DNA from: a virus
Virus record (IMG/VR): IMGVR_UViG_3300032083_003901
Location: 9,891 to 73,890 of that record
Reading direction: 5' to 3' (one strand)
Length of the DNA: 64,000 bases
Shown here: piece after piece, positions 16,556-33,610 of the stretch
Layout of the letters: each line of letters begins with the position of its first letter
Position numbering within the stretch: the stretch's first letter is position 1
The notes under the pieces: generated by a model
Told to the model about the DNA's origin: nothing
The model's input: the letters and a program-made list of their open reading frames with translations, nothing else
Databases searched by the model: none
Position numbers and translations under genes: made by a program

Positions 16556-16981
16556 ATGTGGTGTCCGCCAAAATCTCCCCACAGTTTATTGCAAGAATCC
16601 TTGTGGCCGGATGAATGGAAGATCTTGATGTCTTGTTTGATGTTAAATCAAACTACGAGAAAACAGGTTGATAAAGTGGTCTGGCAATTTTTTGATAAAT
16701 GGCCAGATCCTCAATCTTTCTTGAAATCAAAACATGAAGATGTTTCTGATCTTCTAAGACCATTAGGGTTCTATAACCGCCGCCCTAAAGCTATGCGCCG
16801 TTTTACAGAAGAATACGTTCAAAAAGAATGGCTCGAGCCTATTGAGCTTCACGGCATTGGCAAATATGCGAATGATGCATGGCGAATTTTCTGCCGCGGA
16901 GATTGGAAAGCAGTAGATCCTCAAGATCACGCTTTGAACAAGTATCACTCTTGGCTTTGGAACAGTAATGGCAAAAACTAA
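16556..16981 (+). CDS. MBD4-like HhH-GPD DNA glycosylase (G:T/G:U mismatch type)
   Basis: WxPPKSP..LLQE, LNQT, LLRPLGFY, PIELHGIGKYANDAWRIFC, PQDHALNKYHSWLW closely match the MBD4 catalytic domain. Confidence 0.9.
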   Translation: MWCPPKSPHSLLQESLWPDEWKILMSCLMLNQTTRKQVDKVVWQFFDKWPDPQSFLKSKHEDVSDLLRPLGFYNRRPKAMRRFTEEYVQKEWLEPIELHGIGKYANDAWRIFCRGDWKAVDPQDHALNKYHSWLWNSNGKN

Positions 16982-25500: not shown

Positions 25501-26186
25501 CTTCTTGCAAGGGTCTCGGTGATGCAGCAATTGACGAGATCATGATTAGTCGACCTTACGGCAAGTTGGAAGATGTCTTTTGGAATGAAGATGGAACTTG
25601 GAAGCCATCAAAGCTCAACAAAACTGGCATATCTGCTTTGATCAAACTTCGAGCATTTGAATCAGTGAACTGGCGATCTAAATTTGAAAACTATCGACAG
25701 TTTCACGATGTAGTTCTAGACAACTGGAATGAGATCAAGAAGTCTCTAAAGAAAGATCCCGATAGAGGCAGAAACCGGTTTAATGAATTGGCTCTAGAGA
25801 CAGAAGGCACTCCGGACTGGAGTCTGTCAGAAGTCATCAGCAATAGCATGAGCTTGTTAGGAACTGTGAATCTAGAGAGCTTGATGCCTGAAGATTTGCA
25901 AGAAAACTTGGCAGCTAGAAACATTCGCTGCATTGATGATTTTGACAGAGAAGAGATTTATTGGGGTTTGCTGGTAAAAGCAGATAAGAAGATGACTAAG
26001 AAAAAGAAGCCTTACTTGTTGTTGCACTTGATGGGCAAAAGTGGTTCTAGAGAGCGAGTTTTCTGCTGGAATAGTCCAGCTGATGCTTCTCTAAAACCTA
26101 ACTCTTTGGTAGCCCTTCAGCTATCAAAAACTGACTTTGGTTTTTCTACAAGATGGCGAAAAATTGTTGAACTAAGATCTAAGTGA
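22596..26186 (+). CDS. dnaE: DNA polymerase III alpha subunit (family C)
   Basis: PHP motifs HSHT, TEHG, DSHY; GRGSGAGSLV; PDIDTD; GRHAGG; KFDLLGL; YGFNASHA. Confidence 0.95.
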   Translation: MKKPNKFVGLHSHTGVGSVFDGLGYPQEHIDFCLENGLNAWALTEHGNANSFAHAYLYNQKLKSKGIDFKFIPGAELYVHPDLDVWQYDYQISKAAKSGDKDAVAKLRAEREKIATHIDITTDGDDEITDIQVSSEEASLTVENEEETKSGKFFDPVKRRHHLVVLPKTSVGLQRLFGLISRGYLEGFYRFPRVDYKMLKEAAEGGHLMVSSACLGGPLSAEVFKHLQQVEFNELNYKLLDDPSLAKKVMLGIGNTYEQLVDAVGAENVFLELQFNKLSAQHLVNRALMQFAKQENLGDKLVVTCDSHYARPEHWKEREIYKKLGWLNHGDFDPSQIPQSREELKCELYPKNADQVWQSYLETADGMSFYDDALVSAAIERTHDIAHDMIGDIVPDTSMKLPSYVIPKGTTADRALVDMCKKALLEKGLHTNKEYVDRTIHELKVIKEKNFSEYFLTMKKIIDVAWESFIVGCGRGSGAGSLVNYLLGITNVDPIEYGLLFERFLDPMRTESPDIDTDVSDRDGLIHKLREEFGGDNVIPISNYNTFKLKSLIKDVSRFYGIPFQDVNAALSTLEKDVANGRRSSGEEGGFDITLDEALRFSKKTATFLESHPEIVSPLNVLFKQNKNLGRHAGGVIISENIADRMPLILAKGEPQTPWVEGMTAKHLESFGWIKFDLLGLETLRMIQKTIELILKKEGNPNPTFAEVKQWYLEHMDPKVMDLKDQKVYEHVYHAGRWAGVFQCTQAGAQKLFKRAKPESIMDLATLTSIYRPGPLSAKVDNIYVRAKKNPESVDYGHPLIRQVLEPSYGCIVFQEQAMALCHVVAGIPKIELNKIRKMMKPGGSSGDNVEKAKALRDRFITGAINNGVKKSVAEDLYEKILFFAGYGFNASHAVCYAINSYYCAWLLTYYKTEWLTAYLEASSSKPEKLAKALSEVKGLGYKISRADVNYSEREWTCINGDTFVPSFASCKGLGDAAIDEIMISRPYGKLEDVFWNEDGTWKPSKLNKTGISALIKLRAFESVNWRSKFENYRQFHDVVLDNWNEIKKSLKKDPDRGRNRFNELALETEGTPDWSLSEVISNSMSLLGTVNLESLMPEDLQENLAARNIRCIDDFDREEIYWGLLVKADKKMTKKKKPYLLLHLMGKSGSRERVFCWNSPADASLKPNSLVALQLSKTDFGFSTRWRKIVELRSK

Positions 26187-26195
26187 GTTTATAAT
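26167..26195 (+). promoter_or_regulatory. Sigma70-like promoter TTGAAC-N17-TATAAT for the modification operon
   Basis: Canonical spacing; implies the true start of the next gene is downstream of 26194 (26203 or 26218). Confidence 0.55.
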
Positions 26196-26202
26196 GTACA
26201 GC

Positions 26203-27042
26203 ATGGAATTCAACCAAATGAAATTTGATAGTCTAAACGATTTATTTCTCAACCTCTTGGGTCAAGTCTGGAATAACGGAAGTGAAGTCAACTCAAGAGG
26301 CTCTAAGCAGAAAGAGTTACTATTTCAATCTTTTACTTTGACTAATCCTACTGCTTTAGACATTACTTCTGATGCACGCAAATTTTCGAAAGACTACGCT
26401 GTCTCTGAGTGGATGTGGTATCTTTCTACAAATCGCTCCGCTAAAAACATTGGTAAGTTGGCTAAAATCTGGTCTAGGATTGCCGATGAAAATGGCGAAG
26501 TAGAATCCAACTATGGTTCTTATTTTTGGCCACAGTGGAAATGGGTTATCAATGAGTTGGTATCTGACAACGATACTCGGCGTGCGACCATGGTTGTCAA
26601 CCAACCTCATCACAAAGAAGCAAATGTAAACGACTACCCTTGCACTCAATATGTGCAGTTTCTTATTCGAGACAAGAAGCTGCACATGGGTGTGAACATG
26701 AGATCAAACGATATTATCTTTGGTCTTTGCAATGATGTGTTCACTTTCTGCTTGTTCCAGCAGATGATGCTGAATGAGCTTAGGTTGCGTGGACTAGACG
26801 TTGAATTGGGAGAATACTATCATCATGCCGGCAGTTTGCATCTATACGAAATGCATTTTTCTAAAGCGCAACAAATTTTGAAAGAAGATGTAAGCCAAAA
26901 TTCGGCACAGACTTTTGAACTAAGAGGTGATTTTTGTTGGCCAGATTATCAAAACTTAAAGGCAGCTTTTCCGATGAAGGATACGAGCAAGAAGGAGCTG
27001 CAGGAACTAGCGAAACTAGCAGCGGAGGAGCTTTTTGTATGA
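26203..27042 (+). CDS. Thymidylate-synthase-superfamily enzyme, probable dCMP hydroxymethylase
   Basis: SEWMWY (Glu), SNYG, DTRRA, DYPCT (Cys), MRSNDIIFGLCND with Asp at the base-specificity position as in T4 gp42, GSLHLYE. Confidence 0.75.
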   Translation: MEFNQMKFDSLNDLFLNLLGQVWNNGSEVNSRGSKQKELLFQSFTLTNPTALDITSDARKFSKDYAVSEWMWYLSTNRSAKNIGKLAKIWSRIADENGEVESNYGSYFWPQWKWVINELVSDNDTRRATMVVNQPHHKEANVNDYPCTQYVQFLIRDKKLHMGVNMRSNDIIFGLCNDVFTFCLFQQMMLNELRLRGLDVELGEYYHHAGSLHLYEMHFSKAQQILKEDVSQNSAQTFELRGDFCWPDYQNLKAAFPMKDTSKKELQELAKLAAEELFV

Positions 27043-27317
27043 ACATTCTAGAGCAAGCAAACGAGATCGTGAACAAGAGATCTGAAGAGAAAGAGCGCAT
27101 GTATGGACCTTTCTCTGAAGGCATGCGCCGAGCAGCTTTGATTGCAACAGGCATGACTGGCAAAGAGTTTGAGGCTGAAGACATGTACGCTGCTCTAGTG
27201 GCTTTGAAACTATCCAGGCACTCTTACAACTACAAGCAAGACAATTTGCTTGATGCTTGTGCTTACCTAGGAGCTCTTGATAATTTCATCGTTGAAAAGG
27301 GAGAAGAAAACAAATGA
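27039..27317 (+). CDS. DUF6378-like all-alpha protein (possible nucleotide pyrophosphatase fold)
   Basis: ILEQANEIV..R.RMYG, LKLSR, DNLLDACAY. Confidence 0.65.
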   Translation: MNILEQANEIVNKRSEEKERMYGPFSEGMRRAALIATGMTGKEFEAEDMYAALVALKLSRHSYNYKQDNLLDACAYLGALDNFIVEKGEENK

Positions 27318-27757
27318 AAATCTGTAAAGTTAGAGATGTAAAGACCCCAACTAGAGGAACGGAAGGCAGTGCAGGTTTGGATTTCTATGTTCCTAATGAT
27401 CTAGGACATGAAGAAATTGTCATTGGACCCGGATCAGCAGCGTTCATTCCTTCGGGCATCAAAGCAGATGTTCCGGCTGGGCATGCTCTGATTGCTTTCA
27501 ATAAATCTGGCGTTGCTCTAAAGAAACAATTGTCTGTGGGCGCGTGTGTTGTCGATGAAGACTACCAAGGCGAAATCCATTTGCATGTGTACAATTTTGG
27601 AAATGAAGAAACTTTGGTGAAGCCAGGCGAAAAACTGCTGCAAATGGTGCTACTGCCCGTAAATTATGCTAGCGTTGAAGTTGTTGAAGAAGATCAGCTT
27701 TTTGGCGAGACGACAGAACGAGGCGATGGAGGCTTTGGTTCCACAGGAGTTTTTTGA
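27314..27757 (+). CDS. dut: Trimeric dUTPase
   Basis: SAGLD, KSG, VDEDYQGE, RGDGGFGSTG. Confidence 0.92.
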   Translation: MKICKVRDVKTPTRGTEGSAGLDFYVPNDLGHEEIVIGPGSAAFIPSGIKADVPAGHALIAFNKSGVALKKQLSVGACVVDEDYQGEIHLHVYNFGNEETLVKPGEKLLQMVLLPVNYASVEVVEEDQLFGETTERGDGGFGSTGVF

Positions 27758-27759
27758 TT

Positions 27760-28764
27760 ATGAGTGCAATTGTTAGTCCGATTACTAATCATGCAAATAG
27801 GCTAGCTAGCCACAGAACTGGTTGGGCCAGAATGTGGTCAGCATGCTTAGATAGTGAGTTGCTGTATAACCAAGATTGGTCAAACGAGAGCACGGTTTAT
27901 TTTGAACACGGAATGGAGTTCAAAGAAAATTCCAAAGGTGTCAATGTATTTCTAAAAGATCCTAAATCTTGGGACAAACTGGCAGAAAAAGCCAGGATGA
28001 TTGAAAACTTTACTGGTGAACTTTATTCTCTAGACATTGATTGCCCGGATTATGGAGCTAGGCTGAAGTCTAGGGTTCGTGAGCATTCTACGCAAGCATA
28101 CAAGAGTTTAGATTTCGATAAAATTTCAGAAGTATGCAGCAAAGCAAAAACTTTAAAGCAAGAAGATCTACAAAAGATCGGAATTGTTTTTGGAGACTCG
28201 CATGCGCTGAGTGCTTGGAGAACTGATGCCCATCTTTCCAGAAATGATGGTCAAACTCTAAATGGTGCTCTAAATAAAGGTTTCAATACTTGGACTGAAA
28301 AATTCAATCCTAAAGAAAGAAACTTGCAATTTTTAAGAACTTATCTTGGAAATATCGATATTAGACACCATCTTTGTCGGCTAGCCACAACTCCAGAAGA
28401 GCAAAAGAAGCTTACGCTGGACCTCGCTGAAAGATACATTGAAGAGTTGAAGAATTGGCAGCAGGAAAATAAAGTTCCAACAATTGAAGTTGTAGCTAGC
28501 TTGCCAATTGAGAATGTATCTAGAAAATTGCCAAAAACCGGTTACTTCAAAGGGCAGCCTTATTGGGGAACTTGGGAAGAAAGAAACAATGTTCATCTTT
28601 GGTTCAATGAAGCGCTGATGAATGCATGCAGTAAAAACGAATTTTCTTTCATAGAATGGCCTGATAATTTTATCAACGGGACAGGCGAATTAGATTTTCG
28701 TTTTATGGAAAAACCTAGATCAGTCCATATTTCCCCAGAACACTACATGTGGAAGGTAAAATGA
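27760..28764 (+). CDS. SGNH/GDSL-like domain protein in the modification cluster
   Basis: VFGDSH (Ser), GQT (Gly), GNID (Asn), SVH (His) blocks in the C-terminal half. Confidence 0.55.
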   Translation: MSAIVSPITNHANRLASHRTGWARMWSACLDSELLYNQDWSNESTVYFEHGMEFKENSKGVNVFLKDPKSWDKLAEKARMIENFTGELYSLDIDCPDYGARLKSRVREHSTQAYKSLDFDKISEVCSKAKTLKQEDLQKIGIVFGDSHALSAWRTDAHLSRNDGQTLNGALNKGFNTWTEKFNPKERNLQFLRTYLGNIDIRHHLCRLATTPEEQKKLTLDLAERYIEELKNWQQENKVPTIEVVASLPIENVSRKLPKTGYFKGQPYWGTWEERNNVHLWFNEALMNACSKNEFSFIEWPDNFINGTGELDFRFMEKPRSVHISPEHYMWKVK

Positions 28765-29810
28765 GAGACAAAGTCAATTTTACAGAGTATTTCAATGATT
28801 TTCTTCTATACGCTGCCATGGCAAAAGAAGTTCAAAACAAATGCAACTTAGGTGGAGAACCTTATGTCGGTTCTTGCGGTGACGACCTCATTGAAAATGT
28901 AACCATTTATGACACTGTTGAAAGGAAGCACGCAGGTTTCCAAAACATGATTCAAGATCTTTGGTTTGCAGATCAGGCTCCAAAATACTACAAATGGAAT
29001 GAAGACCACAAAAAAAGAAATAAAAGCTACAGAGGGCTTCATGAAGTTTGGACCAGAAGAGAGTGGTTGTTTGTATTTCTGACGCATAGAATTACTGGAT
29101 CTGGTGCTTCTTTTGAGGTGGATCACGGCTATCGCAATACGATTCTGCCTGAATTGGCAAAGCTTGAAAAAGTCGAGGACATGGTAGAATGGATCAGAAA
29201 CTATGATGGTGTCATGTATACTAGCATAGGAAACCAGATTCCAGCGTTTCCAAAACCTCGAGATCAATACAAGACTGGTGGCAAAGTATATTTTGGCGAA
29301 TATGCCCTCCAGTTAGTTGACGATGTCTGGCACTTTGTCGATTCAATTAATAACACGGGCAGAAAAGCTCTGATTAGAGAAATTGTGGACTTCATGTGTC
29401 AGTGGAATCGAGAGAGAGGCATGAAAGCTTTTCATTTCCAATATACGGCAACCGCTGCAGATCTGGCTGATTACTATATCGACATCGTTGATGAAGGCAG
29501 CCACATGTATTACGGTAAAAATGCACAAGAAGCCATGGATCTCTTTGCTACGAAGTCTGGTAGGATCAATAAGGCTCAGTTCTATGACGTTGTCATGGAA
29601 GAAGCTAAGACACATACTGGTGGATTTCCAAAAGATCTAGAAGACGTAATGTGCGATTACATTCGATATGTCGAAAATTACATACCCGACAATCGAGAAA
29701 AGACTTACGCACATTTAGATAGAAAGAAAATTTGGAACAATTCAATTATTGAAAATCATCCTAAAGGTCGTCAAAAATGGATGGTAGGCACTAACGAGTG
29801 GAAGTGGTAA
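28761..29810 (+). CDS. Amino acid:DNA transferase-like (aGPT-Pplase family) protein
   Basis: IYDTVER, HRITGSG, ADLADY, C-terminal DLEDVMCDYIRY resembling the ExxxCE/DxxKY motif; adjacent to a PLP enzyme. Confidence 0.6.
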   Translation: MRDKVNFTEYFNDFLLYAAMAKEVQNKCNLGGEPYVGSCGDDLIENVTIYDTVERKHAGFQNMIQDLWFADQAPKYYKWNEDHKKRNKSYRGLHEVWTRREWLFVFLTHRITGSGASFEVDHGYRNTILPELAKLEKVEDMVEWIRNYDGVMYTSIGNQIPAFPKPRDQYKTGGKVYFGEYALQLVDDVWHFVDSINNTGRKALIREIVDFMCQWNRERGMKAFHFQYTATAADLADYYIDIVDEGSHMYYGKNAQEAMDLFATKSGRINKAQFYDVVMEEAKTHTGGFPKDLEDVMCDYIRYVENYIPDNREKTYAHLDRKKIWNNSIIENHPKGRQKWMVGTNEWKW

Positions 29811-30692
29811 ATGGCACACAACAATCACGTATTAGATGGAATCAACAAAGATCTTCAGTTACGAACTCGCGATGAGTGGCTGGCAATGACAGAAAACTGG
29901 GAAGATCCCTATGGATTGCCAATTGTAACTGAGCATGAAGGCGTAAAAATCGTCAGAGACGACCACATGGTTGGATCTAAATGCAGGTTTGCTGATCTGT
30001 TGATGTCCAATGTGAAGCAAGATACGATCGTCTATGTTCAACCTAGATTTGGCTTAGCTGGACCTTCAATTTTGGAAGTTGCTAAGCGTTACGATAAGCG
30101 AGTCGTGCTCTTTATGCCTTCATCTAAAAAAATATCACACCACCAAGCTGTTTGCATTGAAAGAGGTGCTGAGCCTAAATTTATGAGAATTGCTGCCATG
30201 CCGAATCTCAATTCAGTTGCCAAAAGATGGGCAGAAGAAAATGATGCTTGTTTTGTTCCTCTCGGTCTAAGGCATGAGCTGGTAACAGCATGCGCAATAA
30301 GGGTTGTTGAAAACTTGAGAGAAGTTCATGGAGATCCGGGTCATGTTTGGTTTGCAATTTCTACTGGAGTTTTAGGTAGAGCCCTTCAGATCGGATGGAA
30401 CAATTCAGAGCACCACGCAGTTGCAGTCTCTAGAAACTTGAAATCTGGCGAACTTGGTGGAGCTTCAGTAGATTCAGACTCTTTGGCTTTTACCAAAAAT
30501 GAGCGGAAAGAAAACTTGCCTCCTTTTCCAACTGTTTACAATTACGATGCCAAAGTTTGGAAGTATATTCCGAAGAATCGCCCTAGTGAAAATCATTGGA
30601 TGTGGAATGTAGGCAAAGAGCCAATTTTGGAAGATAAGACTATTTTCGATAGAATTGATAGCTACCGTGACTGGGGTGAAGTTAGGTTTTAG
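29811..30692 (+). CDS. PLP-dependent fold-type II enzyme (phage hypermodification decarboxylase-like)
   Basis: VRDDHMVGSKCR (Schiff-base Lys), AISTGVL phosphate loop, YDAKVW, WNVG. Confidence 0.75.
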   Translation: MAHNNHVLDGINKDLQLRTRDEWLAMTENWEDPYGLPIVTEHEGVKIVRDDHMVGSKCRFADLLMSNVKQDTIVYVQPRFGLAGPSILEVAKRYDKRVVLFMPSSKKISHHQAVCIERGAEPKFMRIAAMPNLNSVAKRWAEENDACFVPLGLRHELVTACAIRVVENLREVHGDPGHVWFAISTGVLGRALQIGWNNSEHHAVAVSRNLKSGELGGASVDSDSLAFTKNERKENLPPFPTVYNYDAKVWKYIPKNRPSENHWMWNVGKEPILEDKTIFDRIDSYRDWGEVRF

Positions 30693-30711
30693 CTCTGAGA
30701 AAAAGGTAAAA

Positions 30712-31737
30712 ATGAAAGCATTGGTAACCGGAGGCTGCGGCTTTATTGGGTCGCATCTTGTAAAAAAACTAATAGAAACTGGAGCAGAGGTAACTGTTGT
30801 AGATGATCTCTCGTCAGGCAACTTGAGTAATTTGTCTGACAAAGGTCTGAATTTTAGACCTGTGATTCCAAGCTTAATGCATCAGCTTTACGCAAAAGCT
30901 TCTTTTAGCCCGGGAGACGTTGTTGTAGCTACATGCGATTTTGTGGATCCGCAATTTTTGAAATATTTTGTTGATGGCAATTACACGCATGTTTTTCATC
31001 TGGCGGCAAATCCTCGAGTAGAGTATAGCGTTCAATACCCAGCCGTTTCTACCGAGATCAATCTCATGAAGACAGTTGAGCTGCTTTCGGCTTGTCGACA
31101 GGCAAATATTGAAAAGTTCGTATTTGCGTCTTCATCAGCAGTATTTGGAGACGTCTGGTCTGATTCAGAATCTTCGTATGATGAAGACGATGCCAGATGT
31201 CCACAGAGCCCATACGGACTGCAGAAGTATTGTTGTGAACTGTTCATGGAGCAGTTTAGCAATCTTTACGGCCTTGAAACAGTTGCGCTCCGTCTTTTTA
31301 ACGTCTATGGACCAGGCTGTTATGGCGATAGTCCTTATTCTACTGCTGTAGCTGCATGGTGCGATAAGATTTCAAAGAGAGAAGCGTTGAGGCTTGATGG
31401 AGACGGTACGCAAACTAGGGATATGGTTTACGTCGAAGATGTGGCCAATGCCTTTGTAGTTGTTGCAATTGAGAAAGCCAGAATTCAGGAAGGCAAGAAG
31501 TTTAATGTCTTCTGTGTTGGTACTGGGAATTCAATTTCAAATAATCAGATTTTGGAAATGTTAGCAACTGAAGTTGGTGGTTTTGTAATTGTCAACGCCC
31601 CTCCGAGGACGGGAGATGCTAAGCATACTCGAGCATCCATAGATAGAATAACGCAAAAAACTACTTGGCGACCAAATACCGATTTCAAGAGCGGATTAAG
31701 AGAAACACTTAGATGGTGGGAGATAATTGATGCCTAA
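30712..31737 (+). CDS. NAD-dependent nucleotide-sugar epimerase/dehydratase
   Basis: TGGCGFIG, HLAA, ASSSAVFG, YGLQK, RLFNVYGP, RDMVYVEDVA. Confidence 0.92.
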   Translation: MKALVTGGCGFIGSHLVKKLIETGAEVTVVDDLSSGNLSNLSDKGLNFRPVIPSLMHQLYAKASFSPGDVVVATCDFVDPQFLKYFVDGNYTHVFHLAANPRVEYSVQYPAVSTEINLMKTVELLSACRQANIEKFVFASSSAVFGDVWSDSESSYDEDDARCPQSPYGLQKYCCELFMEQFSNLYGLETVALRLFNVYGPGCYGDSPYSTAVAAWCDKISKREALRLDGDGTQTRDMVYVEDVANAFVVVAIEKARIQEGKKFNVFCVGTGNSISNNQILEMLATEVGGFVIVNAPPRTGDAKHTRASIDRITQKTTWRPNTDFKSGLRETLRWWEIIDA

Positions 31738-32278
31738 TAATCCTGAATTTGTGATTTATACTGGCCCTATGTTTGGTGGCAAGACTTCTAGAATGTTAGC
31801 TGCCTTAGATAGAGCAAAATATCAATCTAAGAACATTGCTGCATTCAAACCTAAAATGGATCATCGATATGCAGATGAAAGCATCGTGACCCATACTGGT
31901 CATTCATGCGAAGCAATATGCATTTCTGATGGCAGTGAAATATTTGACTATGCAAAGAAAGCAGATATCATTGCTGTTGATGAAGCTTTCATGATTGATG
32001 GAATAGCAAATGCCTTAGTTCAGTTGTTTCGAAATGGAAAGACTATTTATGTTTCAACGATTCAACTGTCTGCCCATGGTCTCTTTTTTGATGAAGTGCA
32101 ATCCATGATACCGTGGGCAACAAAAGTTGAAGTTTGTCCTGCAGTGTGTTCGCAGTGTGAAAATGATGCTTTTTACACGGTGGCTAAGGTTTCTGGTCTA
32201 AGCCATATTGAGGTTGGAGGGGCTGAAACATACGAGCCTCGGTGTCACGAGCACACGCCATTTCTTAAGACAGAGTAA
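31730..32278 (+). CDS. tdk: Thymidine kinase
   Basis: GPMFGGKT, VDEAF, CSQC, VGGAETYEPRC. Confidence 0.9.
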   Translation: MPNNPEFVIYTGPMFGGKTSRMLAALDRAKYQSKNIAAFKPKMDHRYADESIVTHTGHSCEAICISDGSEIFDYAKKADIIAVDEAFMIDGIANALVQLFRNGKTIYVSTIQLSAHGLFFDEVQSMIPWATKVEVCPAVCSQCENDAFYTVAKVSGLSHIEVGGAETYEPRCHEHTPFLKTE

Positions 32279-32281
32279 AAC

Positions 32282-33136
32282 ATGAAGTTTGATCCGGCAA
32301 AAATTGACTGCGTCATATACCATGCAAACTGCAGCGATGGATTCGGTGCTGCTTGGTCTGCTTGGAAGTTACTAGGCAACAAGGCTGAATATTATGCAGC
32401 CACGCATGGCGATCCGCCGCCTGATGTATCAGGCAAACATGTTGCTATTCTAGATTTTTCGTATTCTAGAGAAGTAGTCTTGGATATGATAGAAAAAGCA
32501 GCTAGCTTAGTGATTATCGATCACCACAAATCTGCAATGGTTGCTTTGCATGATATCCCCAATGCTTATTTTGACATGAATCACAGTGGAGCTATGTTAG
32601 CCTGGAATCACTTCCATCCAGGCAAAGAACCGCCTAGATTCATCAAATACATTGAGGATCGCGATCTGTGGAAATGGGAGCAGCCTTACTCAAAGGAGTT
32701 TTCTGCAGCATTCGATATGGTTCCTTTTGATTTCGAAGCTTTTACTGAATTTGAAGACGATTCTGCATTTGATGATGCTTGCAAGCGAGGGTCTTACATT
32801 CTGGCTTATTCGAAGACTGTTGTCAAAAAAGTATCTGATCAAGCCACCATGAGAACTTGGCAAGGCAAGAAAATTTACATTGTCAATTCTTCGCACTGGA
32901 TGAGCGAAATTGGTGCTAGATTATCGCCAGATTGTGATTTTGTGATAATTTGGTACTTCGATCACGATAGAAGAGAAACTAGAGTTTCTTTGCGTTCTTT
33001 TCATGACGAGGTTGATGTTAGTGAGATTGCAAAACAGTTCGGCGGCGGCGGGCACAAAAAAGCAGCTGGCTTTAGCCTAACTGCTGAACACGATATTGAC
33101 ATAATCTTTGCAAACGAGGATGAAAGTGCACAATAG
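32282..33136 (+). CDS. DHH/DHHA1 phosphoesterase
   Basis: YHANCSDG, LDFS, IDHH, DRDLW, SLRS, GGGGHKKAAG. Confidence 0.9.
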   Translation: MKFDPAKIDCVIYHANCSDGFGAAWSAWKLLGNKAEYYAATHGDPPPDVSGKHVAILDFSYSREVVLDMIEKAASLVIIDHHKSAMVALHDIPNAYFDMNHSGAMLAWNHFHPGKEPPRFIKYIEDRDLWKWEQPYSKEFSAAFDMVPFDFEAFTEFEDDSAFDDACKRGSYILAYSKTVVKKVSDQATMRTWQGKKIYIVNSSHWMSEIGARLSPDCDFVIIWYFDHDRRETRVSLRSFHDEVDVSEIAKQFGGGGHKKAAGFSLTAEHDIDIIFANEDESAQ

Positions 33137-33554
33137 ACCTTCGTGGGATCATATCTGGATGAAATTTGCAAAATCAATCTCTGAAAGAAGCATTGATCCT
33201 AGGTTTAAAGTTGGCGCTGTTGTGGTCTCAAAAGACAACACGCAAGTTTTGGCAATGGGCTACAATGGCGATCAAGCTGGTGGCAGTAACGAGGTTGAAT
33301 CTCTGGAGCCGGGGCAGAGCGGTTGCATCCACGCTGAAATTAATGCCTTGATCAAGTTAGATTACAACAATCCCAAGCCTAAAAAGATGTACGTCACCCT
33401 GTCTCCTTGCAAGATGTGTGCAAAAGCCATAGTCAATTCCGGCATTGAAGAGATCATCTATCTCGAGGAGTATAGAGACAAAACAGGCGTTGAAATTTTA
33501 GGAAAAGCTGATCGTGAAGTGCGACAGCACGCAGAGGTGCCAATTTCTAGCTAA
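33120..33554 (+). CDS. dCMP deaminase
   Basis: RPSWD, VGAVVV, GYNG, HAEINA, SPCKMC. Confidence 0.92.
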   Translation: MKVHNRPSWDHIWMKFAKSISERSIDPRFKVGAVVVSKDNTQVLAMGYNGDQAGGSNEVESLEPGQSGCIHAEINALIKLDYNNPKPKKMYVTLSPCKMCAKAIVNSGIEEIIYLEEYRDKTGVEILGKADREVRQHAEVPISS

Positions 33555-33578
33555 TTTTTTTCTGTTATCTAAATTTTT

Positions 33579-33588
33579 GTGATATTTA
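33579..33588 (+). promoter_or_regulatory. Putative late promoter GTGATATTTA
   Basis: One of six exact copies located just upstream of genes. Confidence 0.7.
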
Positions 33589-33610
33589 GTGTAGAGTTTT
33601 AGGAGTTATT

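What the first reader, a model, noticed from the sequence alone, without database searches (positions are those of the whole stretch)
26167..33554. Candidate cytosine amino-acid hypermodification operon (dCMP-type TS + AA:DNA transferase + PLP enzyme + SGNH)
Seen: a promoter-led, tightly coupled run of TS homolog, DUF6378-like, dUTPase, SGNH-like, aGPT-Pplase-like, PLP enzyme, NDP-sugar epimerase, TK, DHH and dCMP deaminase. Known: in phages ViI and M6, an amino acid:DNA transferase plus a PLP decarboxylase hypermodify thymidine via 5hmdU, after activation by a 5hmdU DNA kinase. Known: the residue after RSxDxxxGxxx is Asn in dUMP enzymes (E. coli ThyA N177) and Asp in T4 dCMP hydroxymethylase. 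Here it is Asp (RSNDIIFGLCND vs T4 RSNDVVFGFRND). No 5hmdU-kinase-like gene is visible in the cluster, and an SGNH-fold protein sits next to the transferase. Inference: the amino-acid-transfer/decarboxylation chemistry may act on hydroxymethylcytosine, possibly with a non-kinase activation or tailoring step, giving an undescribed base.
Basis: partly seen in the sequence, partly recalled or inferred. Interest (0 to 1): 0.9.

Follow-up and report, generated by a model that had tools for sequence, protein, structure and literature searches.

The report
Kinase-free hydroxymethylcytosine hypermodification gene cluster
A large uncultured marine phage carries a tight gene cluster, repeated in hundreds of other viral contigs, that most likely makes hydroxymethylcytosine and then decorates it in DNA. 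It uses relatives of the thymine-hypermodifying enzymes, with an esterase-fold enzyme where those pathways have a DNA kinase, and no paper I could search describes such a route.

Summary
The ten-gene run is real and tightly coupled. The claimed promoter is not supported.

- **TS homologue:** it matches T4 dCMP hydroxymethylase at the published diagnostic residues (ThyA numbering D177, D143, D169 kept). It is therefore predicted to make 5hm-dCMP, not dTMP, 5hm-dUMP or 5ho-dCMP.
- **27760-28764:** an SGNH-fold enzyme with the GDSH motif and a conserved His.
- **28761-29810:** a helical protein of the HhH-GPD/aGPT-Pplase superfamily. Its best solved match is PaMx11 gp46 (Z 9.8). It shares the E-x-x-x-C motif. 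By sequence it bridges to the helical domain of 5-hmdU DNA kinase (PF18723), not to the amino acid:DNA transferase family (PF18724).
- **29811-30692:** a homologue of M6 gp52, the PLP decarboxylase that acts on amino-acid-modified DNA.

The SGNH and helical proteins are fused in eight natural protein clusters. The SGNH, helical and PLP genes lie together in 46 of 78 related viral loci, 36 of them with an Asp-type TS. A 99%-complete relative has no 5-hmdU-kinase homologue.

Best reading (0.55): post-replicative, kinase-free hypermodification of 5hmC. The chemistry is inferred only.

One complete relative has all the module genes but no TS homologue, which I cannot explain. The scan has noted the same module on other genomes. 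Novelty: new variant of a known kind.

The parts
26194..27042 (+). Thymidylate-synthase homologue, predicted 5-hydroxymethyl-dCMP synthase (T4 gp42-like active site)
   Evidence: PF00303 scores 80 bits. The best solved relative is T4 dCMP hydroxymethylase at E 1e-24, against ThyA at about 1e-12. In ThyA numbering it has D143, C146, D169 and D177, identical to T4 gp42.
27039..27317 (+). DUF6378 protein (92 aa), function unknown, translationally coupled (ATGA) to the TS gene
   Evidence: PF19905 E 5e-10. A GGAGGAG Shine-Dalgarno sequence precedes ATG 27039. Homologues occur in L003, L008 and L047 beside the module.
27314..27757 (+). dUTPase
   Evidence: PF00692 E 1e-23; TIGR00576 scores 106 bits.
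27760..28764 (+). SGNH-fold enzyme (ORF4) with an extra N-terminal domain of about 135 aa; it sits where the thymine pathways have a DNA kinase
   Evidence: The AF2 model has pLDDT 92. Foldseek probability is 1.0 to sialate O-acetylesterase and PAF acetylhydrolase. VIA Z is 14.7, and the hits include the PatB/OatA O-acetyltransferases. G147-D148-S149-H150, N200 and H325 are invariant in 34 relatives. It is fused to the next protein in 8 natural clusters.
28761..29810 (+). Helical HhH-GPD / aGPT-Pplase-superfamily protein (ORF5) with a conserved LE298-D-V-M-C302 motif
   Evidence: The AF2 model has pLDDT 93. VIA top hit is PaMx11 gp46 (8z2m), Z 9.8 over 208 residues, followed by Qng1 at 9.1 and AGOG at 8.3. 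The E-x-x-x-C motif is shared with gp46, M6 gp51 and the HMUDK_hel proteins. The family profile finds a HMUDK_hel-type protein at E 6.5e-9. The nearest Atlas clusters carry PF18723.
29811..30692 (+). Fold-type-II PLP enzyme (ORF6), homologue of the M6 gp52 DNA-conjugate decarboxylase
   Evidence: phrog_7093 E 1e-35, and M6 gp52 is the archetype of that PHROG. hhalign against gp52 gives probability 92%, E 7e-7, with K57 aligned to gp52 K36. 27 of 32 relatives hit PALP.
30712..31737 (+). NAD-dependent NDP-sugar epimerase/dehydratase; lineage-specific insertion, not part of the conserved module
   Evidence: PF01370 E 2e-52. GalE-like at E 5e-48 but below the equivalog cut-off. Absent from all 80 related loci.
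31730..32278 (+). Thymidine kinase
   Evidence: PF00265 E 2e-29. Also present in L003.
32282..33136 (+). DHH/DHHA1 phosphoesterase
   Evidence: phrog_4771 E 1e-78; DHHA1 E 3e-8.
33120..33554 (+). dCMP deaminase
   Evidence: PF00383 E 2e-23. A dCMP deaminase lies beside the TS homologue in many related loci.
16556..16981 (+). Small HhH-GPD glycosylase-like protein, 10 kb upstream; a possible associate of the module
   Evidence: PF00730 E 2e-8. Its homologues (cluster c11) lie directly upstream of the ORF5 homologue in 23 'type B' loci.

Best explanation
The cluster is a cytosine hypermodification pathway.

**Step 1 (read from sequence signature).** The TS homologue converts dCMP to 5-hydroxymethyl-dCMP, as T4 gp42 does. 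The neighbouring dUTPase, dCMP deaminase and thymidine kinase balance the nucleotide pools.

**Step 2 (inferred).** 5hmC is built into phage DNA in place of C.

**Step 3 (inferred from fold, gene fusions and analogy).** The SGNH enzyme and the helical aGPT-Pplase-like protein work as one two-part enzyme. This is the counterpart of 5-hmdU DNA kinase, which is a P-loop kinase plus a HMUDK_hel domain. The helical part binds DNA and flips out the 5hmC. The SGNH part uses Ser149 and His325 to esterify the 5-CH2OH group, instead of phosphorylating it.

**Step 4 (inferred).** Cys302 of the helical protein sits in the same E-x-x-x-C motif as the proposed nucleophile Cys247 of PaMx11 gp46. It attacks C6, the ester leaves, and an amino acid adds to the exocyclic methylene.

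**Step 5 (inferred from homology to M6 gp52).** The PLP enzyme, through Lys57, decarboxylates or otherwise trims the attached amino acid. This leaves an amine-bearing side chain on C5, for example an aminoethoxymethyl- or aminoethyl-type cytosine.

The result would be DNA resistant to host nucleases.
For: **TS homologue**
- The active site matches T4 gp42 at the ThyA positions 58, 80, 94, 143, 146, 147, 166-169, 173 and 177. D177 marks a dCMP substrate, D143 a hydroxymethyl product, and D169 not N excludes 5ho-dCMP synthase (criteria from PMC13326640).
- T4 dCMP hydroxymethylase is the best solved relative.

**Conserved linkage**
- Of 78 IMG/VR loci with an ORF5 homologue, 46 also hold ORF4 and ORF6, and 36 of these also hold a TS homologue. 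Gene order varies.
- All 30 linked TS homologues have D143, D169 and D177, although they fall in at least three separate TS lineages.

**Homology to the thymine pathway**
- ORF6 matches phrog_7093, the family of M6 gp52, at E 1e-35. hhalign gives probability 92%, and the Schiff-base lysine aligns. gp52 is a proven decarboxylase on DNA (PMC8989533).
- ORF5's top solved structural match is PaMx11 gp46, Z 9.8.
- The E-x-x-x-C motif is conserved in ORF5 relatives: E in 30 of 30, C in 29 of 30. Cys247 is the proposed C6 nucleophile in gp46 (PMC11472151).
- The ORF5 family profile hits a HMUDK_hel-type protein at E 6.5e-9 across 1.8 billion representatives. The nearest Atlas clusters carry PF18723.

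**ORF4-ORF5 link**
- Eight representative proteins of 560-790 aa are SGNH-ORF5 fusions that keep both GDSH and the LEDxxC motif.
- The two genes overlap by ATGA in the window.
- SGNH catalytic residues are invariant. The fold hits include O-acetyltransferases.

**No kinase**
- PF18748, PF18723 and PF18724 are absent from the record. PF18748 is absent from a 99%-complete relative, which also has ThyX for dTMP.

**Cultured phages**
- Aeromonas phages 44RR, 31 and 25 have gene 42 but no glucosyltransferase (PMC2993671). They encode an ORF4-like domain fused to a helical domain with a weak HMUDK_hel hit.
Against: - No experiment supports any step. Nothing shows that the DNA is modified or that these proteins act on DNA rather than on nucleotides.
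- A 100%-complete relative (G005, 174 kb) has ORF4, ORF5, ORF6 and the ORF5 paralogue C1, but no TS, ThyX, TET/JBP or C5-methyltransferase homologue. In that lineage the source of a hydroxymethyl group is unknown, or the target is different.
- ORF5 matches neither Pfam ADDT nor HMUDK_hel directly, even at E 10. Its structural score to gp46 (9.8) is tied with Qng1 (9.1), an enzyme that acts on a mononucleotide, and is close to the scores for DNA glycosylases.
- Many relatives have a second paralogue (C1) that this window lacks. The transferase step may need C1.
- SGNH enzymes are usually hydrolases, and no acyl donor is evident.
- In the ML tree the window's TS lies outside the gp42 clade, on long branches.
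- The record covers only about 20% of the genome. A kinase or glycosyltransferase could lie elsewhere.
Confidence: 0.55

Rival explanations
1. The SGNH-helical pair itself installs the final or penultimate group as an ester on 5hmC, for example an O-acetyl or other O-acyl 5hmC. No amino-acid substitution step follows. The PLP enzyme either trims that acyl group or supplies the donor.
For: - SGNH-fold hits include true O-acetyltransferases: PatB, OatA and a perhydrolytic acyltransferase.
- By sequence ORF5 is nearer to the kinase-partner helical domain (PF18723) than to the transferase family PF18724.
- Aeromonas T4-like phages have the SGNH-helical fusion and gene 42 but no ORF6 homologue, so the pair can stand alone.
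- The window lacks the paralogue C1, which could be the real transferase.
Against: - ORF5 keeps the E-x-x-x-C motif whose Cys is the proposed C6 nucleophile of the transferase gp46.
- ORF6 is homologous to an enzyme that needs a free alpha-amino acid attached to the base.
- ORF6 accompanies ORF4 and ORF5 in 46 of 78 loci.
Confidence: 0.17
2. The module acts before replication on free nucleotides (5hm-dCMP or 5hm-dCTP), not on DNA.
For: - ORF5's fold score to Qng1/DUF2419, which hydrolyses a nucleoside monophosphate, is tied with its score to gp46 (Z 9.1 against 9.8).
- The known 5hmC carbamoyltransferase also accepts 5hm-dCTP (PMC8670742).
- The cluster sits among nucleotide-metabolism genes.
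Against: - The nearest characterised relatives, gp46, HMUDK_hel partners and M6 gp52, all act on DNA.
- ORF6-like domains are fused to, or sit beside, DNA methylase and ParB genes in cultured phages.
- ORF4 has many invariant Arg and His residues, which would suit a polyanionic substrate.
Confidence: 0.1
3. The final target is thymine. The adjacent dCMP deaminase converts 5hm-dCMP to 5hm-dUMP, and the module then hypermodifies 5hmU as in M6 or ViI.
For: - A dCMP deaminase lies directly beside the TS homologue in many loci.
- All characterised relatives of ORF5 and ORF6 work on 5hmU-derived bases.
Against: - Phages that use 5hmU encode Asn-type dUMP hydroxymethylases (SP8, SH-Ab 15599, PaMx11), and none is linked to this module.
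- A 99%-complete relative keeps ThyX for normal dTMP.
- TS + PRA-PH dCTPase + dCMP deaminase is the usual set in phages with modified cytosine (PMC8670742).
- The residue after the motif Glu is Asp in ORF5 and C1, but Thr or His in the thymine enzymes.
Confidence: 0.07
4. The phage makes plain 5hmC, or nothing unusual. ORF4-ORF6 serve another purpose, such as DNA repair, anti-defence or metabolism.
For: - A complete relative carries ORF4, ORF5, ORF6 and C1 without any TS, TET or C5-methyltransferase homologue.
- ORF5 homologues often sit beside HhH-GPD or UDG-family glycosylase-like genes.
Against: - The module is linked to Asp-type TS homologues from several TS lineages in 36 loci.
- There is specific homology to two enzymes of a proven DNA hypermodification pathway.
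Confidence: 0.1

Closest known systems
Thymidine hypermodification pathways of phages M6, PaMx11, ViI, PhiW-14 and SP10 (dUMP hydroxymethylase, 5-hmdU DNA kinase, aGPT-Pplase/amino acid:DNA transferase, PLP decarboxylase; PMC8989533, PMC5889632)
   Same: - A TS-family hydroxymethylase is clustered with an aGPT-Pplase-superfamily helical protein and a gp52-type fold-II PLP enzyme.
- The E-x-x-x-C motif and the Schiff-base lysine are conserved.
   Different: - The TS has Asp at the N177 site, so its predicted substrate is dCMP, not dUMP.
- There is no P-loop 5-hmdU kinase. An SGNH-fold enzyme takes its place and is fused to the helical domain in some relatives.
- The helical protein is in neither Pfam family, PF18723 or PF18724.
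- There is no radical-SAM, flavin or acetyltransferase partner.
5-hmdU DNA kinase (P-loop kinase PF18748 + helical domain PF18723, e.g. PaMx11 gp49/gp50, M6 gp54/gp55)
   Same: - A two-part arrangement: a group-transfer enzyme plus an aGPT-Pplase-type helical protein, either as neighbouring genes or fused.
- The ORF5 family profile reaches a HMUDK_hel-type protein at E 6.5e-9.
   Different: - The catalytic partner is an SGNH Ser-His enzyme, not an ATP-dependent kinase. The activating group, if any, would be an ester and not a phosphate.
- The predicted base is 5hmC.
T4 gp42 dCMP hydroxymethylase with alpha/beta-glucosyltransferases (glucosyl-5hmC)
   Same: The TS active-site signature is the same. 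The logic is the same: a pre-replicative 5hm-dCMP pool followed by tailoring of the hydroxymethyl group.
   Different: - No glycosyltransferase is present.
- The tailoring enzymes are of the amino-acid-transfer type.
- The window's TS lies outside the gp42 clade.
5hmC carbamoyltransferase / 5-carbamoyloxymethylcytosine (MetaGPA, PMC8670742)
   Same: A non-sugar derivatisation of 5hmC found in environmental phages. It is clustered with an Asp-type TS, a dCMP deaminase and a PRA-PH dCTPase.
   Different: The enzyme families are entirely different: a TobZ-type carbamoyltransferase, against an SGNH enzyme, a helical protein and a PLP enzyme.
RB69/DLP3 5-hydroxycytosine synthase and arabinosylation (PMC13326640)
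   Same: A TS homologue with Asp at the N177 site and an acidic residue at the L143 site starts a cytosine hypermodification.
   Different: Those enzymes have D169N and use a flavin. The window's TS keeps D169, E58, W80 and G173, as T4 gp42 does. No arabinose genes are present.

Membership tests
T4 gp42-type 5hm-dCMP synthase (thymidylate synthase superfamily, PF00303) | PF00303 match above the gathering score and the catalytic Cys (ThyA C146) | tested here: met
   80 bits against a cut-off of 24.3. C146 is present.
T4 gp42-type 5hm-dCMP synthase (thymidylate synthase superfamily, PF00303) | Asp at ThyA N177 (dCMP specificity), acidic residue at L143 (hydroxymethyl product), Asp kept at D169 (not a 5ho-dCMP synthase) | tested here: met
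   D177, D143 and D169 are present, identical to T4 gp42. RB69 gp48 has N169, and the dUMP hydroxymethylases have N177 (criteria).
T4 gp42-type 5hm-dCMP synthase (thymidylate synthase superfamily, PF00303) | Placement inside the gp42 clade in a tree | tested here: not met
   The window and L008 fall outside the 28-row gp42 clade (support 97/96). The branches are long and the root is at midpoint only.
T4 gp42-type 5hm-dCMP synthase (thymidylate synthase superfamily, PF00303) | Enzymatic formation of 5hm-dCMP from dCMP and methylene-THF | not testable with these tools
   Needs an enzyme assay.
Amino acid:DNA transferase (ADDT, PF18724, aGPT-Pplase clade 2) | Match to the Pfam model | tested here: not met
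   The window protein gives no hit at E up to 10, and 30 relatives give none at E up to 1. PaMx11 gp46, run as a control, hits at E 2e-27.
Amino acid:DNA transferase (ADDT, PF18724, aGPT-Pplase clade 2) | Two-helix-bundle fold of gp46/PUGT and the E-T-x-x-C active-site motif | tested here: met
   8z2m is the top hit, Z 9.8, rmsd 4.1 over 208 residues. The motif reads LE298-D-V-M-C302, with E conserved in 30 of 30 and C in 29 of 30 relatives. The equivalence of C302 to C247 rests on motif and position, not on a superposition.
Amino acid:DNA transferase (ADDT, PF18724, aGPT-Pplase clade 2) | Transfer of an amino acid to an activated 5-hydroxymethylpyrimidine in DNA | not testable with these tools
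   Needs biochemistry.
5-hmdU DNA kinase helical domain (HMUDK_hel, PF18723, aGPT-Pplase clade 1) | Match to the Pfam model or demonstrable sequence homology | tested here: inconclusive
   - There is no direct Pfam hit.
- The ORF5 family profile finds P0504 at E 6.5e-9. PaMx11 gp50 and M6 gp55 hit that same protein at about 1e-6.
- In the nearest Atlas clusters, 13-36% of members carry PF18723.
5-hmdU DNA kinase helical domain (HMUDK_hel, PF18723, aGPT-Pplase clade 1) | Paired or fused with a P-loop 5-hmdU kinase (PF18748) | tested here: not met
   PF18748 is absent from the record and from a 99%-complete relative. The partner is an SGNH enzyme instead.
SGNH/GDSL hydrolase superfamily | SGNH fold with block I Gly-Asp-Ser, an oxyanion Asn and the block V His | tested here: met
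   Foldseek probability 1.0 and VIA Z 14.7. G147-D148-S149, N200 and H325 are invariant. The block V Asp is not conserved, and no Pfam GDSL model matches.
M6 gp52 / ViI gp226-type PLP-dependent decarboxylase of DNA-linked amino acids (phrog_7093; fold type II) | Sequence homology to gp52, with the Schiff-base lysine | tested here: met
   - phrog_7093 matches at E 1e-35. gp52 itself matches the same PHROG at E 2e-159.
- hhalign gives probability 92%, and K57 aligns with K36.
- For PALP, the window protein scores only E 0.011, but 27 of 32 relatives hit, the best at 3e-9.
M6 gp52 / ViI gp226-type PLP-dependent decarboxylase of DNA-linked amino acids (phrog_7093; fold type II) | PLP binding and decarboxylation of a base-linked amino acid | not testable with these tools
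   Needs spectroscopy and an assay.

The most novel reading that the evidence does not exclude
Many marine and freshwater phages replace cytosine by a still undescribed, amine-bearing C5 derivative made from 5hmC without any DNA kinase. These include jumbo phages like this one, T4-like phages, and in a reduced form the cultured Aeromonas phages 44RR, 31 and 25. In this route an SGNH-fold enzyme joined to an aGPT-Pplase-type base-flipping protein esterifies the hydroxymethyl group. A gp52-like PLP enzyme then finishes the side chain.
Probability: 0.4. Interest if true: 0.85.

Novelty: new variant of a known kind. Interest (0 to 1): 0.78.

Why it matters
All known amino-acid or polyamine hypermodifications of phage DNA are on thymine and start with a DNA kinase. 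Known 5hmC derivatives are sugars or a carbamoyl group. This module would carry the amino-acid chemistry over to cytosine and replace phosphorylation by a different activation.

The module is common:
- more than 566 IMG/VR loci hold an ORF5 homologue;
- more than 1400 relatives of the PLP enzyme were found;
- near-identical DNA occurs in seawater runs from more than ten studies.

A new base made this way would matter in three ways. It would affect how environmental phage DNA is cut, sequenced and detected. It would bear on phage-host defence. It could also supply new DNA-modifying enzymes as tools.

Cultured Aeromonas phages that carry the SGNH-helical fusion make the question directly testable.

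Tried and rejected
**Searches that found nothing**
- Megablast of the cluster against 50,697 phage records: no match.
- tblastn of ORF5 against the same records: no match.
- Profile searches of the ORF4, ORF5 and ORF6 families against PDB sequences: no hits.
- Foldseek of ORF5 against PDB: nothing below E 0.001, although gp46 was rank 1 at E 0.41.
- hhalign of the ORF5 family against single sequences of gp46, gp51, gp50, gp55 and the 44RR ORF233c C-terminus: not significant.
- DUF6378 against PDB: nothing.
- The 229-aa gene between ORF4 and ORF6 in G005: no family found.
- Literature searches for SGNH + hydroxymethylcytosine, or for DNA transferase + hydroxymethylcytosine + decarboxylase: only the thymidine papers came back.

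- Complex prediction for ORF4 + ORF5: no verdict, score 0.00. It is not used either way.
- Iyer et al. 2013, the original aGPT-Pplase paper, is not held.
- The sequencing runs are kept as contigs and cannot show modification, so no reads were laid.

**Ideas considered and rejected**
- The TS is a dUMP enzyme: it has D177.
- The TS is a 5ho-dCMP synthase: D169 is kept.
- The TS is a dCMP methylase: it has D143, where Mallos has N and ThyA has L.
- ORF4 or ORF5 are glucosyltransferases of T4 beta-GT size: the folds are SGNH and HhH-GPD-like.
- There is a promoter at 26167-26195: the -10 box overlaps the start codon, and such hits are at chance level.
- The epimerase belongs to the module: it is absent from all relatives.

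Full report
**Setting.** The window is bases 9891-73890 of a 73,890-nt IMG/VR virus record that CheckV rates 20% complete, so it is a fragment of a very large phage. Near-identical DNA occurs in seawater, marine and salt-marsh runs from more than ten studies between 2014 and 2025. All genes around the finding lie on the + strand and belong to a replication and nucleotide-metabolism block: RecA, 5'-3' exonuclease, DnaB, both RNR subunits, ClpP, a small HhH-GPD protein, topoisomerase II, a MazG-like protein, Fpg and a DnaE-type Pol III alpha.

**Observation.** After correcting start codons they are:
- TS homologue, 26194-27042
- DUF6378, 27039-27317
- dUTPase, 27314-27757
- ORF4, 27760-28764
- ORF5, 28761-29810
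- ORF6, 29811-30692
- epimerase, 30712-31737
- TK, 31730-32278
- DHH phosphoesterase, 32282-33136
- dCMP deaminase, 33120-33554

The junctions are ATGA overlaps, abutting codons or short gaps, so the run is translationally coupled.

The promoter is not supported. Its -10 hexamer lies on the TS start codon. The TS gene begins 8 nt after the polymerase stop. Promoter-like hits number 29, against 22.8 +/- 4.9 in shuffles.

**The TS homologue.** Its best solved relative is T4 dCMP hydroxymethylase (E 1e-24), followed by the CMP hydroxymethylase MilA and only then ThyA. I aligned it with:
- E. coli ThyA;
- T4 gp42;
- RB69 gp48, a 5-hydroxy-dCMP synthase;
- three dUMP hydroxymethylases;
- a Xanthomonas phage TS.

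I then read the residues that Lee et al. 2026 use as diagnostics. N177D marks a dCMP substrate, L143D/E a hydroxymethyl product, and D169N a 5-hydroxy product. The window protein has D177, D143 and D169. It equals T4 gp42 at every listed active-site position except 82. It is therefore predicted to make 5hm-dCMP. In an ML tree it lies outside the gp42 clade, on long branches. The call thus rests on the active site, not on clade membership.

**ORF4.** There is no Pfam or NCBIfam hit. A confident model (pLDDT 92) has an SGNH fold in its C-terminal 200 residues. Foldseek gives probability 1.0 to sialate O-acetylesterase and PAF acetylhydrolase. VIA gives Z 14.7, and the hits include the O-acetyltransferases PatB and OatA. 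G147-D148-S149-H150, N200 and H325 are invariant among 34 relatives, as are several Arg residues. It looks like an active Ser-His enzyme.

**ORF5.**
- *Sequence families.* There is no family hit even at E 10.
- *Fold.* The model (pLDDT 93) is all-helical. The top 18 VIA hits are all of the HhH-GPD type: PaMx11 gp46, the 5-phosphomethyl-dU glycinyltransferase, at Z 9.8; Qng1 at 9.1; and archaeal and bacterial 8-oxoG glycosylases at about 8.
- *Motif.* The family shares a C-terminal motif E-x-x-x-C-x-aromatic with both known aGPT-Pplase clades. gp46 and M6 gp51 read ET[IV]LCKW. gp50 and gp55 read EHTLCEF. ORF5 reads E298-D-V-M-C302-DY, with E conserved in 30 of 30 and C in 29 of 30 relatives. 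In gp46, C247 is the proposed C6 nucleophile, and E243 and T244 hold the metal at thymine O4.
- *Bridge to PF18723.* A profile of the ORF5 family, run against 1.8 billion representatives, finds a 283-aa protein with the motif ENCLCEF at E 6.5e-9. PaMx11 gp50 and M6 gp55 (HMUDK_hel) hit that same protein at about 1e-6. The nearest Atlas clusters carry PF18723 in 13-36% of members.

ORF5 is therefore a new branch of the aGPT-Pplase superfamily. By sequence it is nearer to the helical domain of 5-hmdU DNA kinase than to the amino acid:DNA transferases.

**ORF6.** It matches phrog_7093 at E 1e-35. M6 gp52, the experimentally proven PLP decarboxylase that converts C-alpha-glycinylthymine in DNA to 5-aminoethyl-dU, is the archetype of that PHROG. 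Profile comparison gives probability 92% and aligns the invariant K57 with gp52 K36. 27 of 32 relatives hit PALP. In cultured phages, ORF6-like domains occur inside a 'DNA modification methylase' (Erythrobacter phage R6L gp1) or after two ParB genes (Microcystis phage Mae-JY30). Both settings fit a DNA substrate.

**Linkage.**
- *Co-occurrence.* A scan of IMG/VR found at least 566 loci that encode an ORF5 relative. Of 78 loci analysed, 46 hold ORF4 and ORF6 next to ORF5 in varying order, and 36 of these also hold a TS homologue. All 30 distinct linked TS homologues have D143, D169 and D177, yet they fall in at least three TS lineages.
- *Host phages.* Most of these loci are from T4-like phages: they have a gp45 clamp and a PRA-PH dCTPase, and many have a small UDG-family gene.
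- *Fusions.* Eight representative proteins of 560-790 aa are ORF4-ORF5 fusions that keep both GDSH and LEDxxC. The two proteins therefore very probably act as one enzyme.
- *No kinase.* A 99%-complete relative (167 kb) has one Asp-type TS plus ThyX, and no 5-hmdU kinase or TET homologue.
- *Cultured phages.* Aeromonas phages 44RR, 31 and 25 were long noted to have genes 42 and 56 but no glucosyltransferase. They encode a 795-aa protein with an ORF4-like N-terminal half and a C-terminal half that weakly hits HMUDK_hel.

**Complications.**
- 55 loci have a second helical gene, C1, a distant paralogue of ORF5 with the same motif. The window lacks it.
- 23 'type B' loci have only an HhH-GPD glycosylase-like gene, ORF5 and C1 together.
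- The one complete type B genome has ORF4 and ORF6 elsewhere but no TS, ThyX, TET or C5-methyltransferase homologue. I cannot explain this.
- The epimerase is unique to this phage.

**Reading.** The simplest account is a 5hmC counterpart of the thymidine hypermodification pathways. An SGNH enzyme joined to an aGPT-Pplase-type helical protein takes the place of the DNA kinase, and a gp52-like PLP enzyme finishes an amino-acid-derived side chain. The TS call and the homologies come from tool results. DNA as the substrate, ester activation, Cys302 catalysis and decarboxylation are all inferences by analogy.

The rival readings are direct O-acylation as the end product, action on free nucleotides, a detour to 5hmU through the deaminase, or an unrelated function. 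No paper I could search describes this module. Earlier notes of this scan on five other genomes reached the same reading.

Noticed in passing
window 16556-16981: A small HhH-GPD glycosylase-like gene (PF00730 E 2e-8). Its homologues sit directly upstream of the ORF5 homologue in 23 related 'type B' loci, which suggests a functional tie to the module.
   Followed up: partly
G005 = IMGVR_UViG_3300032320_001447 (L063, L102, L107): A 100%-complete 174-kb relative has ORF5 + C1 at one site. At another site it has a GroEL-like gene, ORF4, an unknown 229-aa gene and ORF6. It has no TS, ThyX, TET/JBP or C5-methyltransferase homologue, so the source of its substrate is unknown.
   Followed up: partly
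L010 3035-4027, L016 11097-12134 and 53 other loci: A second helical gene of about 333 aa (C1) lies next to ORF5. It is a distant paralogue with the motif N[LI]EDK[LT]C. It is absent from the window and may be the true transferase in those phages.
   Followed up: partly
L010 5971-7170; G001 123066-123965 (L098): A C5-cytosine DNA methyltransferase gene lies directly after the SGNH gene in some T4-like relatives. That is odd for genomes expected to replace C by 5hmC.
   Followed up: no
L088 (Erythrobacter phage vB_EliS_R6L gp1) and L089 5986-6696 (Microcystis phage Mae-JY30): ORF6-like PLP-type domains occur inside a large 'DNA modification methylase', or right after two ParB/sulfiredoxin genes. 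This is a different, uncharacterised DNA-modification context for this enzyme family.
   Followed up: no
window 30712-31737: A GalE-like NDP-sugar epimerase/dehydratase is inserted between the PLP gene and TK. It occurs only in this phage and in none of the 80 related loci. Its role is unknown: a sugar step, or an auxiliary metabolic gene.
   Followed up: partly
L012 9594-10010 and 31 other loci: A small (about 140 aa) UDG-superfamily gene overlaps the start of the ORF5 homologue in many T4-like relatives.
   Followed up: no
window 33555-33610: This is the first real intergenic gap after the run: 56 nt, T-rich, then TAGGAG and ATG 33611. The coupled block appears to end here.
   Followed up: no
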